From the NCBI GenBank assembly GCA_951406725.2, contig OX597832.1, positions 25,792,001 to 25,856,000 of the forward strand: DNA of 64,000 nt, given 5' to 3'. The position numbers and the translations under genes were made by a program. Source of the stretch: Octopus vulgaris. Its lineage: Eukaryota. Of this stretch, positions 12,267 through 34,025 are shown in pieces (position 1 is the stretch's first letter; every line of letters begins with the position of its first letter). Below the pieces are notes generated by a model. That model was not told where the DNA came from. It did not search any database and saw only the letters and a list, made by a program, of their open reading frames with translations.

Positions 12267-12445
12267 TCAGGGGCAAATTTTGAAAATGTCACAGTTTGAT
12301 CGACAGCAAGAATCGGCGAGCATGCGCACGGCCGACCATCTTCGTTTGACAACGGGAACGAAAGCATTTGTCATGTAGTTGATTTCATTTGTTCGTCGTC
12401 GTTTTTGGTGCGTCATAATGGTTGATTCGTCTTGGATAATACCAC
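12267..12445 (-). CDS. Insulin/relaxin-like peptide precursor, last coding exon (C-peptide end, A chain)
   Basis: Strong acceptor (T-tract ...ATATTTTCAG|G). Read in phase 1 it gives (S)GIIQDESTIMTHQKRRRTNEINYMTNAFVPVVKRR-WSAVRMLADSCCRSNCDIFKICP*. The phase matches the 33821 donor. Confidence 0.85.
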
Positions 12446-13014
12446 CTGAAAATATATAAAAAAAAAAAAAAACAATTATATATAAAATTATATTCAATGT
12501 AATAATTAGAATACCTATAGGCATGCAAATGGGTTTCTTATTTTTTTTTGTTCCTTTACTTGTTCACTGCGGCCATGCTGCAGCAGCACCTTTAGTTGAA
12601 CAAATTGAACCCAGGACTTATTCTTTATAAGCCTAGTACTTATTCTATCGGTCTAAGTTATGGAGACGTAAACACACCAACATCAGTTGTTAAGCGATGG
12701 TCAGAGGACAAACACAGACACAAATAAAAATATATATATATATATATATATATATATATATATATTATATAATTATATATATATATATATATATATATAT
12801 ATATATATATATATATATATATATATATATATATATATATATATATTTATATATATATATATATATATATATTATATATATATATATATATATATATATA
12901 TATATATATATATATATATATATATATATATATATATAAACCCGCGACATACTGAGGAGTCCGCGATAGGTATACAACGATATGATGAGGGATTATTGAA
13001 CATATATACAGATA

Positions 13015-13401
13015 GGCGCAGGTGTGGCTGAGTGGTAAGAAGTTTGCTTACCAGCCACATGCTTCCGGGTTCAGTCCCACTGCGTGGCACCTTGGGCAAG
13101 TGACTTCTACTATAGCCTCAGGCCTAGTGAGTGGATTTGGTAGACGGAAACTGAAAGTAGCCTGTCGTATATATGTATATATATGTATGTGTGTGTTTGT
13201 GTGTCTGTGTTTGTCACCCTAGTATAGCTTGACAACCGATGCTGGTATGTTTGCGTCCCTGTCAGCGGTTCGGCAAGGGGAGCCGATAGAATAAGTACTG
13301 GGCTTACAATGAATAGGTCCCGGGGTCGATTTTCTCGACTAAAGGCGGTGCTCCAGCATGGCCACAGTCAAATGACTGAAACAAGTAAAAGAGAGTAAAA
13401 G
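13015..13401 (+). mobile_element. SINE family A, full-length
   Basis: Close match to 5911-6333. Confidence 0.9.
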
Positions 13402-31445: not shown

Positions 31446-31899
31446 GATATTGTTGTTTGGGACAGAGGAGCAAAGGTATGTACCATCATAGAGGTTAGCT
31501 GCTCTACAGATACGAATATCTCTGAAAATCAAAGAAGGAGAGGATTTCTAAGAACAACTGCTTCGAAACCTCCAGCTTCTAGATCCAGACTATGAATTTA
31601 TATTCATACCAATAGTAATTGGAGCACTGGGTTTTGTTAGTTAATGCTTAAAAGAGAATCTGGATAAACTGAGATTTTCAGAAAGAGAAATCGACCGGTT
31701 AATTCGTACAGTAAAAATATGCAAGACTTTTCTCAAGTTCGAAAAGTGAATTTTTCGTACAGTAAAAATATGCAAGACTTTTCTCAAGTTCGAAAAGTGA
31801 ATTTTTTCTGTGTTAACTACATCCTAAAGATGGGGCCTTGTATCTTTGTTGGAAACCGGCTCCCTCCGCAGTGGAAAATTTATATTTATTAAAAAACAG
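31446..31899 (+). mobile_element. R4/Dong-like non-LTR retrotransposon 3' end (restriction-like endonuclease domain)
   Basis: DIVVWDRGAKVCTIIEVSC..D.NI / LLRNLQLLDPDYEFIFIPIVIGALG...VKICKTFLKFEK*, matching the PD..(D/E) RLE domain. A 51-bp tandem duplication spans 31703-31804. Confidence 0.8.
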
Positions 31900-33820
31900 A
31901 AGAGACATACATACATACATGCATACATACACACATACTTAATAGATACATATACATATATATATATGTACATATGTAAATATACATGTACATATATATA
32001 TACATGTATATATATATATATGTGTGTGTATGTGTGTAATTACATTCTGTGAAGTCATTCGATGCCTATGTGTACTTTAATTACTGTCTATGCAGAAAAT
32101 TTCTTCTCTAAGTCAATTACCGTAGCAAATACCACTTTCGAGTGTGTACCAGGTGTCTTCGTCCGAAATATATTGATTTTCATAAACGAGAAGCTTTACA
32201 ACTAAACACTTTATCATAAGTGGCATACGTCTTTCTGGACATATTGATAAAAGCATATATATATATATATATATATATATATATATATATATATATATAT
32301 ACATATATATATACATATATATATACATATATATATATATATATACATATACATATATATATATGTATATATATATATGTATATATATATATATGTATAT
32401 ATATATATATATATATGTATATATATATATATATACATATATATATATATGTGTGTGTGTGTGTGTGTGTGTGTGTGTTTGTATGTATATACATTAGATA
32501 GATAGATAGTAAGATAGATAGATAGATAGATAGATAGATAGATAGATAGATAGATAGATAGATAGATAGATAGATAGATAGATAGCAGATACACATATAT
32601 ATATATGCACGCACACATGTATATATATACACACACACACGTATACATGAATATATATTTATACGCATAAGTATGAATATATGCATGTATATATGCATAT
32701 ATATAATGTATATTTGTATATATTATATATATATTTCCTGAGAGCACATACAGCCAGGAGTGCGCACAAGCGTGTGTATGCATGTGAGGAGTTGTAATAA
32801 TTAATATTCTATTCCTGAGAATGTATTTCTTTAATTTGCTCTCATTGTCGTTACAGTATTTGTAGCGTTTAAAGCGACGAGCTAGCAGAATCGTTAGCAC
32901 ACCGGGCGAAATGCGTAGCCGTATTTCGTCTGCCGCTACGTTCTGAGTTTAAATTCCGCCGAGGTCGACTTTGCTTTTCATCCTTTCGGGGTCGATAAAT
33001 TAAGTACCAGTTACGCACTGCGTCGATGTAATCGACTTAATCAATAAAAACTCAGAGCAAAATACCGTTAAACATTTCGTACAACGTAATAACGTAAGCT
33101 CACCGTCTTAAAATTCAAATATATTCTTTTCTACTCTAGGCACAAGGCCCGAAATGTTTGAGGCGGGGACCAGTCGCTTAGATCGACCCCAGTACGCAAC
33201 TGGTTCTTAATTTATCGACCTCGAAAGGATGAAAGGCAAAGGCAACCACGGCGGAATTTTAACTCAGAACGAAAATACAGACGAAATACGGCTACGCATT
33301 TCGCCCGGTGTGCTAACGTTTCTGCCAGCTCACCGCCTTAGAGTGAGAGTGAGAGAGAGAGAGAGAGAGAGAGAGAGAGAGAGAGAGAGAGAGAGAGAGA
33401 GAGAGAGATACTAACAAAATCTTTTTATTGGCTCAAGCTTTCTAACACAATCTACTAAGAACTGAAAACTTCGTATAACTTGGTATGAAACTTACCCTGC
33501 AGCCCTCACATTTCCCGATCTTATAAATCCTATTCTCCCTTTATTTGTTGAATCAAAAGTTTTCTCAGAACCCACCAACGTACTGTGCTCTGACAAGGTT
33601 GTTTCCCAACCAAGTACATTTTATCAATAACTTAGCTTCCGTTTACGTCTCCTTCACTCTTCATTTTGTATCTACACGATCTTCTAGTTTATAATCTCAA
33701 CACAAACACAACCTATACTACATAAAGCTTATCATTCAATCTTTCTTCCTCCTAAAATATATAAGACATTTGCACAAAACTACGAAACGAATACTTTTTA
33801 TGTACGAAACTACCACTTAC

Positions 33821-34025
33821 TAGCTTTCTTTGGAAAGATGTTCTGAGGCTGCTCAATCGCCTGCGTCAGGGCTCGCTTAGATCGATCACGCCATATGCAA
33901 AGTGCAACAATGCGATACGGTGTGTATTTGCTGCACGGATCTATACGGTAAGCGCTTGATAATATCCAACACAGCACAAAGACCGCTACTGTCGTCGACC
34001 AAAACCGGAACGATGTGAATGCCAT
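33821..34025 (-). CDS. Insulin/relaxin-like peptide precursor, first coding exon (signal peptide, B chain, start of C-peptide)
   Basis: Translates MAFTSFRFWSTTVAVFVLCWILSSA|YRIDPCSKYTPYRIVALCIWRD-RSKR-ALTQAIEQPQNIFPKKA. It has a hydrophobic signal peptide ending S-S-A, C-x11-C B-chain spacing and a furin-type RSKR. A pyrimidine tract + TAG acceptor lies directly before the ATG, and a consensus donor A|GTAAGT at 33821/33820 is in phase 1. Confidence 0.85.

What the first reader, a model, noticed from the sequence alone, without database searches (positions are those of the whole stretch)
12267..34025. Hidden two-exon insulin/relaxin-like peptide gene spanning a 21-kb repeat-filled intron
Seen: two short minus-strand ORF pieces have canonical splice signals and matching phase 1. 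Spliced, they give 127 aa: MAFTSFRFWSTTVAVFVLCWILSSA | YRIDPCSKYTPYRIVALCIWRD | RSKR | ALTQAIEQPQNIFPKKASGIIQDESTIMTHQ KRRR TNEINYMTNAFVPVV | KRR | WSAVRMLADSCCRSNCDIFKICP. Established: signal-B-C-A order, six mature cysteines, basic cleavage sites, a phase-1 intron in the C-peptide and a non-coding first exon are the classical insulin-superfamily gene layout. Inference: a divergent secreted cephalopod hormone, pheromone or gland peptide that similarity-based annotation could easily miss.
Basis: partly seen in the sequence, partly recalled or inferred. Interest (0 to 1): 0.92.

Follow-up and report, generated by a model that had tools for sequence, protein, structure and literature searches.

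The report
Octopus relaxin-like hormone gene
This is a real, expressed octopus gene for a small insulin/relaxin-type hormone; its counterpart in a sister species is already catalogued, but its function and receptor are unknown, and the usual relaxin receptor seems to be missing from this genome.

Summary
The gene is real. Both coding exons, the GT-AG phase-1 intron (21,375 bp) and the 127-aa precursor check out. Contigs of 3 of 4 laid runs, from three studies, join 33821 to 12445 and to a non-coding first exon 156 kb upstream, so there are at least three exons.

It is not hidden. The O. bimaculoides orthologue (124 of 127 positions identical) is RefSeq XP_014770853.1, and a 2025 paper's supplement labels it 'RLP' (PMC11863921). 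The O. vulgaris database model reads the signal/B exon out of frame, and Pfam misses the protein.

Two distant relatives (35-37% identical) keep it, and Drosophila Dilp8 has it too. Gene structure fits the relaxin/Dilp8 type, not Dilp7 or molluscan MIP.

I found LGR4-like and GRL101-like receptors in the genome but no RXFP/LGR3, as that paper reports for molluscs. Best reading: a secreted two-chain hormone of about 5.3 kDa, acting through a type C LGR. Tissue, fold and receptor are untested. The scan had not noted this gene elsewhere.

The parts
34026..64000 (-). 3' part of intron 1. The whole intron is 156,259 bp (G000:C19:25,826,026-25,982,284). Non-coding exon 1 lies outside the window, ending at C19:25,982,285 with a GTAAGT donor; its last three bases are an in-frame TAG directly before the start ATG in the mRNA.
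   Evidence: Loose ends; single genome match; donor read
33821..34025 (-). Exon 2 (first coding exon, 205 nt): signal peptide, B chain, first cleavage site, start of C peptide
   Evidence: covered exactly by contigs of 3 of 4 runs
33951..34025 (-). Predicted signal peptide, residues 1-25; cleavage after Ser-Ser-Ala is inferred (SignalP not available)
   Evidence: Hydropathy peak 2.74 for the 11-residue window from residue 13; 13-14 of 25 residues identical in P0005/P0006
33885..33950 (-). Predicted B chain, residues 26-47, Cys31-x11-Cys43
   Evidence: same x11 spacing in P0003, P0005, P0006 and the octopod MIP records P0008, P0009
33873..33884 (-). RSKR, residues 48-51, furin-type site (R-x-K/R-R; established knowledge)
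   Evidence: RWRR at the same place in P0005/P0006
12446..33820 (-). Intron 2, phase 1, 21,375 bp, in the C peptide; microsatellites and a mariner transposase fragment
12267..12445 (-). Coding part of exon 3: rest of C peptide (with KRRR 83-86), KRR 102-104, A chain, TGA stop
12270..12338 (-). Predicted A chain, residues 105-127, CC-x3-C-x5-C-P (Cys115, 116, 120, 126)
   Evidence: 11 of 23 residues and the spacing kept in P0005/P0006
11984..12266 (-). 3' UTR with AATAAA at 12011 and 12003; the end is approximate
   Evidence: contig lengths imply ends near 11984, 11966 and 11842 if collinear (only 30 letters of each loose end were shown)

Best explanation
A single-copy coleoid gene for a relaxin/Dilp8(gonadulin)-type hormone. 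SHOWN: it is transcribed and spliced from at least three exons over about 178 kb into an mRNA for a 127-aa precursor laid out signal-B-C-A. INFERRED from established insulin-family biology: it enters the secretory pathway and forms three disulfides (Cys31-Cys116, Cys43-Cys126, Cys115-Cys120). Convertases then cut at RSKR and KRR to release a 22+23-residue heterodimer of about 5,345 Da. INFERRED, less sure: the A chain lacks three residues where insulin's second A helix lies and has no GIV start. It therefore more likely signals through a type C leucine-rich-repeat GPCR than through the insulin receptor kinase. No RXFP/LGR3 gene was found, so the candidates are the LGR4-like receptor (C2:10.97 Mb) or the GRL101-like receptor (C3:76.5-76.8 Mb). 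By analogy with Dilp8, gonadulins and starfish RGP, the likeliest role is coupling gonad or tissue state to maturation and reproduction. My odds: real gene 0.99; insulin superfamily 0.95; relaxin/Dilp8 lineage about 0.6; LGR-type receptor about 0.55; reproductive role about 0.4.
For: Splicing. Orthologue with the same join, differing by 2 substitutions and 1 indel. Two unnamed relatives at 35-37% identity keep all six mature cysteines, both flanking basic sites and the terminal Cys-Pro. ESM Atlas features put PF00049 insulin-family clusters among the nearest hits, at 0.90-0.92, for P0003 and P0006. PMC11863921 labels the orthologue RLP, one of 7 rows with that label among 267. That paper's gene-structure criteria for the relaxin/Dilp8 type are met: B chain right after the signal peptide, a phase-1 C-peptide intron, no phase-2 intron. 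Its Fig. S2 shows Drosophila Dilp8 with the same CC-x3-C-x5-C, and most relaxin-type A chains with a hydrophobic-Ala-x-x-CC start like this peptide's, unlike the GIV start of octopod MIP (compared by eye). P0005/P0006 have K-x3-R-x2-L in the B chain, in the register of human relaxin's R-x3-R-x2-I, and CC-x-x-G-C in the A chain (by eye).
Against: No Pfam insulin hit for P0001-P0006, while the control P0008 scores 37.6 bits. No insulin among PDB sequence hits. Profile comparison with octopod MIP is not significant (probability 0.3%, E 0.21). The top Atlas hit for P0003 is an unnamed arthropod cluster, and P0006's recognition score (1757) is under the level at which a high score counts. The paper warns that molluscan members of its relaxin/Dilp8 clade may sit there through long branches, and reports RXFP/LGR3 lost in molluscs. 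In the octopus B chain the second Arg is one position out of the relaxin register. There is no linkage to other insulin-type genes: none in 464 kb; O. bimaculoides ILP7 is on chr 2 and RLP on chr 19; the MIP-type gene is on C3. The gene structure does not exclude an insulin-type origin. No tissue, peptide or receptor data.
Confidence: 0.55

Rival explanations
1. A fast-evolving duplicate of an insulin/MIP/IGF-type gene that signals through the insulin receptor kinase; its grouping with relaxin/Dilp8 is a long-branch artefact and the short A chain is convergent with Dilp8.
For: The paper's own long-branch caveat and its reported loss of RXFP/LGR3 in molluscs; no LGR3 found here; the nearest named Atlas clusters are arthropod ILP5/bombyxin types; the same exon layout is used by insulin-type genes (established knowledge).
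Against: Six mature cysteines, not the eight of MIPs; no GIV start; no detectable profile similarity to octopod MIP; the shortened segment is where insulin carries receptor-contact residues (recalled).
Confidence: 0.27
2. An insulin-family peptide co-opted as an exocrine product (pheromone, egg-coat or salivary/venom-gland peptide) acting outside the animal, which would explain survival without its ancestral receptor.
For: Small disulfide-linked secreted peptide; low identity between lineages (35-37%); ancestral receptor apparently absent. Cone-snail venom insulins are a precedent (recalled).
Against: Single copy in the searches; mature chains identical between O. bimaculoides and this genome, unlike diversifying exocrine families; the cuttlefish sex pheromone precursors in PMC3484142 are unrelated 248-252-aa proteins (passages).
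Confidence: 0.12
3. Not of the insulin superfamily: a cysteine-rich prohormone whose pattern resembles insulin by convergence.
For: No Pfam or PDB sequence match, no confident fold; A-chain spacing is x5.
Against: C-x11-C, CC-x3-C, the two basic sites, the phase-1 C-peptide intron and the signal-B-C-A order all coincide and are conserved at 36% identity; Dilp8 has the same x5; Atlas features point to insulin clusters; a published HMM search retrieved the orthologue.
Confidence: 0.04

Closest known systems
Octopus bimaculoides LOC106869569 (XP_014770853.1, XP_052830690.1; UniRef100_A0A0L8HNI3), labelled RLP in PMC11863921 Dataset S3
   Same: Orthologue: 124 of 127 positions identical, same exon join, identical predicted mature chains; chromosome 19 there, contig C19 here
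   Different: Only two substitutions and one Arg indel, all in the C peptide; RefSeq span 116 kb against about 178 kb here. Its function is undescribed in the papers I could search.
Drosophila Dilp8 / arthropod gonadulins
   Same: CC-x3-C-x5-C A chain in Dilp8; B chain right after the signal peptide and a phase-1 C-peptide intron; very poor sequence conservation (PMC7357564 passages)
   Different: No significant sequence similarity shown; Dilp8's B cysteines are 12 apart in Fig. S2, here 11; Dilp8 acts on LGR3, which was not found in this genome; no IGF-gonadulin-Dilp7 gene cluster here
Vertebrate relaxins and starfish RGP1/RGP2
   Same: Six-cysteine two-chain precursor, same gene structure, hydrophobic-Ala-x-x-CC A-chain start, B chain ending soon after its second Cys (by eye)
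   Different: Their A chains have x8 or more; their receptor is RXFP/LGR3; the R-x3-R-x2-I cassette is out of register in Octopus
Molluscan insulin-related peptides (octopod records P0008, P0009; Sepiella SjILP, PMC9221753)
   Same: Signal-B-C-A precursor, B-chain x11
   Different: Eight cysteines, C-x-CC-x3-C-x8-C, GIV start, Pfam PF00049 hit; no profile similarity
Dilp7-type peptides (O. bimaculoides ILP7, XP_014782891.1)
   Same: Phase-1 C-peptide intron
   Different: Dilp7 genes have a phase-2 intron and a spacer between signal peptide and B chain; both are absent here

Membership tests
Insulin/IGF/relaxin superfamily | Signal-B-C-A precursor with basic cleavage sites flanking the C peptide | tested here: met
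   sites conserved in P0003, P0005, P0006; signal peptide judged by hydropathy only
Insulin/IGF/relaxin superfamily | B chain C-x11-C | tested here: met
Insulin/IGF/relaxin superfamily | Canonical A chain CC-x3-C-x8-C | tested here: not met
   x5 in the window protein, P0003, P0005, P0006. The accepted member Dilp8 is also x5 (PMC11863921 Fig. S2), so x8 is typical but not required; filed as an atypical member.
Insulin/IGF/relaxin superfamily | Pfam PF00049 match | tested here: not met
   0 of 6 proteins (P0001-P0006) hit; control P0008 hits at E 4.5e-9; the genome-wide PF00049 search did not list this locus
Insulin/IGF/relaxin superfamily | Phase-1 intron in the C-peptide region | tested here: met
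   criterion from PMC11863921 section 5
Insulin/IGF/relaxin superfamily | Insulin fold | tested here: inconclusive
   Models at mean pLDDT 49.5 and 51.8; too poor for the fold searches to mean anything
Insulin/IGF/relaxin superfamily | Disulfide connectivity and processing to two chains | not testable with these tools
   Needs peptidomics or synthesis
Relaxin/Dilp8 (gonadulin) type | B chain directly after the signal peptide; no phase-2 intron between them | tested here: met
   One 205-nt exon encodes signal, B and part of C. Separates it from Dilp7, not from insulin-type genes.
Relaxin/Dilp8 (gonadulin) type | Placement in the relaxin/Dilp8 clade of a tree | not tested
The paper labels the orthologue RLP and says its clade holds molluscan precursors, with a long-branch caveat; the tree figure was not visible.
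Relaxin/Dilp8 (gonadulin) type | B-chain R-x3-R-x2-I/V cassette (vertebrate relaxins; role recalled) | tested here: inconclusive
   In register as K-x3-R-x2-L in P0005/P0006, shifted by one in Octopus; starfish RGP1 and Dilp8 also lack it (by eye)
Relaxin/Dilp8 (gonadulin) type | Cognate RXFP/LGR3 receptor in the genome | tested here: inconclusive
   None found: 3 real LGR exons among 26 motif hits; two type C genes among 9 matches of 78 scored candidates, LGR4-like and GRL101-like. The protein search missed the type A gene on C7, so it is not exhaustive.
Relaxin/Dilp8 (gonadulin) type | Linkage with IGF and Dilp7 genes (ancestral triplet, PMC7357564, PMC8286064) | tested here: not met
   No second A-chain motif in C19:25.592-26.056 Mb; ILP7 on another chromosome in O. 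bimaculoides. Relaxins of many taxa are unlinked too (recalled), so this lowers but does not exclude.
Dilp7 type | Phase-2 intron and spacer between signal peptide and B chain | tested here: not met
Molluscan insulin-related peptides (MIP) | Eight cysteines, A chain C-x-CC-x3-C-x8-C | tested here: not met
   Six mature cysteines; motif from PMC9221753

The most novel reading that the evidence does not exclude
Coleoid cephalopods kept a true relaxin/Dilp8 orthologue, with a Dilp8-like truncated A chain, after losing its RXFP/LGR3 receptor, and re-routed it to LGR4 or to the orphan GRL101. It would be the first known ligand of GRL101, or a case of receptor switching in the insulin superfamily, and a candidate gonad-to-brain signal in octopus maturation and post-reproductive decline.
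Probability: 0.2. Interest if true: 0.75.

Novelty: already known. Interest (0 to 1): 0.36.

Why it matters
As a gene it is known: the near-identical orthologue is annotated and was labelled RLP in 2025. Three things are added here: a corrected O. vulgaris model backed by transcript contigs, the conserved short A chain shared with Dilp8, and a direct look for the receptor in an octopus genome. The 2025 receptor table held only 2 rows for O. bimaculoides (one bursicon-receptor gene) and 1 for Sepioteuthis, so the claimed loss of RXFP/LGR3 was thinly sampled for cephalopods; my search agrees with it. That leaves a testable puzzle: a conserved relaxin-like ligand with no canonical receptor and only three plausible candidates (LGR4, GRL101, insulin receptor), in an animal whose reproductive endocrinology is largely unknown. 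The mature peptide is 45 residues and can be synthesised.

Tried and rejected
Run search: no holder is on record as RNA and names are coded, so tissue and species could not be read; 14 of 24 rows are guessed-RNA holders from five studies, of which I laid three plus X18. X18 gave no contig on exon 2 at 90% likeness; that shows nothing about absence.

Structure: AlphaFold with 1 and 3 sequences gave pLDDT about 50; Foldseek found no match at E <= 0.001 and VIA-align none at Z >= 5; Atlas structure search had no TM over 0.44; B/A complex job returned no verdict. PDB sequence searches gave only unrelated weak hits.

Paralogues: single-protein searches of the genome with each exon and with P0005 found only this locus at meaningful E-values; a profile search of this genome is not available, so very distant paralogues remain possible.

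Receptor by LDLa module: 150 of 326 candidates were scored and I read 50 loci; none looked like an RXFP-type module, which is inconclusive. No LDLa or clear LRR exon of the C2 receptor was picked up by motifs in 200 kb, and its intron after TM7 was not resolved.

Literature: no main text among the searchable papers holds LOC106869569 or five related accessions. Cuttlefish sex pheromones are unrelated. The optic-gland preprint 10.1101/340984 discusses ImpL2, not this gene (passages); the octopus brain atlas PMC9712504 has no insulin-peptide passage; PMC8286064 does not mention molluscs. Rfam: nothing in the window. Earlier scan notes: one unrelated invertebrate insulin cluster by words, nothing by sequence; neither changed my reading.
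Full report
Observation. Exon 34025-33821 begins with ATG directly after an AG acceptor and ends at GTAAGT; exon 12445-12267 follows a T-rich tract and AG. Spliced, they give 384 nt in phase 1 and a 127-aa protein with a stop; the one other nearby GT-AG pair is out of frame. A strict A-chain motif occurs once in the window, once in the 464 kb around it, and in 0 of 60 shuffles. The window is G000:C19:25,792,001-25,856,000 of a 2.8-Gb genome, and each exon is found once.

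Transcript evidence. The run search listed 24 rows, 20 holding the last exon; none is on record as RNA and all names are coded. I laid four runs on 33450-34590. In X2, X7 and X11 (three studies) a single contig covers exactly 33819-34028 and nothing of the flanking introns. The 30 letters shown beyond 33819 are the start of the 12445 exon (the two-base overlap arises because donor and exon both begin GT). X18, from another organism, laid only 33 intronic bases. The other loose end is not in the window but occurs once in the genome at C19:25,982,291, ending at a GTAAGT donor. So there is a non-coding first exon 156,259 bp upstream, and the gene spans about 178 kb in at least three exons. That exon ends in TAG, an in-frame stop directly before the ATG, which fixes the start codon. 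The contigs carry 201, 202 and 313 letters of 5' sequence; the true 5' end is not determined.

What the databases hold. The only full-length close relative is O. bimaculoides XP_014770853.1 / LOC106869569, 126 aa, with the same join; UniRef names it 'Insulin-like domain-containing protein'. It differs by two substitutions and one Arg, all in the C peptide. O. vulgaris CAI9736653.1 matches the window from residue 56 on, but reads the signal/B exon in another frame and so has no signal peptide or B chain. From that match I infer the window is O. vulgaris and that its public model is wrong. Two unnamed Logan proteins (P0005, P0006; 140-141 aa; 35-37% identical) keep the signal peptide, C-x11-C, both basic sites and the A chain. 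P0005's best match in this genome is this locus (E 1.2e-4), so they are probably orthologues from more distant cephalopods; their taxa are unknown. Nothing else was found among 1.84 billion representatives at E <= 0.001 (3 hits).

In print. PMC11863921 (seen: passages, sections 5 and 6, supplementary files 1 part 3, 4 and 10, searches of files 1-12; not seen: the figures, the two FASTA files, files 13-17) searched the O. bimaculoides proteome with relaxin and Dilp7 HMMs. It lists LOC106869569 as 'RLP', as it does one Sepioteuthis gene. The gene is therefore already recognised as relaxin-like, though only as a table row and presumably a tree tip. No searchable main text names its accessions, and a 2022 paper counted only two O. 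bimaculoides ILPs, both other genes (PMC9221753, passages). Subscription papers, such as the cuttlefish neuropeptidome, were not searchable, and the unseen FASTA may show whether the squid RLP shares the short A chain.

Anatomy. Residues 1-25 are a hydrophobic signal (peak 2.74); B chain 26-47 has Cys31-x11-Cys43; RSKR follows; the C peptide holds the intron and an internal KRRR that is reduced to KK in P0005/P0006; KRR precedes the A chain 105-127. It is conserved in all four full-length proteins examined, so it is no error. It probably contributes to Pfam missing all six sequences tested while hitting P0008. Fig. S2 of PMC11863921 shows the same x5 in Drosophila Dilp8, alone among the 30 A chains aligned there. 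By eye, the A chain starts like relaxin-type chains (hydrophobic-Ala-x-x-CC) rather than with GIV, and P0005/P0006 carry K-x3-R-x2-L in the relaxin register, while in Octopus the Arg is shifted by one. ESM Atlas features place P0003 and P0006 next to PF00049 clusters at 0.90-0.92, with the caveats the tool gives. Structure prediction was uninformative.

Which subfamily. By that paper's intron criteria the gene is relaxin/Dilp8-type and not Dilp7-type; it lacks the two extra MIP cysteines and shows no profile similarity to octopod MIP. Against a firm assignment: the paper's own long-branch caveat, no tree of my own, and no trace of the IGF-gonadulin-Dilp7 cluster described in PMC7357564 and PMC8286064 (passages). 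There is no second A-chain motif within 464 kb, the MIP-type gene is on C3, and O. bimaculoides ILP7 is on chromosome 2.

Receptor. The paper reports RXFP/LGR3 lost in molluscs but tabulates only three cephalopod receptor rows, so I looked. A recalled TM2 motif gave 26 genome hits (15 for the reversed control); 3 are real LGR exons. The C2:10.97 Mb gene is closest to human RXFP1 among solved structures (E 1.6e-51). It encodes TM1-TM6 in one exon without the TM2 and TM5 introns of most RXFP/LGR3 genes, and by eye is most like oyster and annelid LGR4. The C3:76.8 Mb gene lies downstream of several LDLa exons on the same strand and looks GRL101-like (label partly recalled). The C7:95.48 Mb exon looks like a type A receptor (label recalled). 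Searching with the C2 transmembrane region found no third type C gene (9 matches of 78 scored), though it also missed the C7 gene, so absence is likely rather than shown.

How it most likely works. Shown: transcription, splicing, reading frame, conservation. Inferred from established family biology: secretion, three disulfides, cleavage at RSKR and KRR, and a heterodimer of about 5,345 Da. Inferred with less confidence: signalling through LGR4 or GRL101 rather than the insulin receptor, and a role in maturation or reproduction like Dilp8, gonadulins and RGP (about 0.55 for the receptor class, 0.4 for the role). Rivals are a divergent insulin-receptor ligand (0.27), an exocrine product (0.12) and convergence (0.04). 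No tissue data could be obtained.

Verdict. A careful and correct piece of gene-finding, but of a gene already catalogued through its orthologue. Novelty: already known. Interest 0.36, carried by the corrected model, the Dilp8-like short A chain and the missing canonical receptor.

Noticed in passing
window 33857-34026 (database record CAI9736653.1, P0004): [quoted passage not shown]
   Followed up: yes
window 17978-18184, minus strand: Mariner-type transposase fragment inside intron 2 (PF01359, E 2.7e-19).
   Followed up: partly
window 20563-21054 and about 34700-35060: A 190-bp unit in 2.6 tandem copies; similar sequence lies just upstream of exon 2. Looks like a common octopus SINE (label recalled).
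   Followed up: no
window 7657-8160 minus; 46917-47201 plus: Open frames resembling fragments of a Penelope-type endonuclease and of a LINE reverse-transcriptase tail (resemblance recalled; no Pfam hit over cut-off).
   Followed up: partly
G000:C2:10,970,900-10,973,600 minus (L112, L137): LGR4-like type C receptor: TM1-TM6 in one exon, TM7 in the next.
   Followed up: partly
G000:C3:76.52-76.81 Mb plus (L072, L107, L108, L138, L139, L144): GRL101-like receptor with several LDLa exons upstream; only one such gene surfaced, against many rows for Aplysia and oysters in the paper's table.
   Followed up: partly
G000:C7:95,477,400 minus (L121): Exon of a probable type A (glycoprotein-hormone-type) LGR (label recalled).
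   Followed up: no
G000:C8:117.55-117.71 Mb minus and 117.93-118.24 Mb plus (L074, L075, L066, L073): Two head-to-head copies of an LDLa-rich gene with identical or near-identical exons: a recent inverted duplication or an assembly artefact.
   Followed up: no
G000:C3:100,950,844-100,950,936 minus (L010): A-chain exon of the octopus MIP-type insulin gene, the only PF00049 match over cut-off in the genome search.
   Followed up: partly
L020:1695-1704 minus (C19, about 200 nt upstream of the exon 1 donor): A TATA-like element at about the point where two of three contigs end; the third contig runs about 110 letters further, so it may not be the promoter.
   Followed up: no
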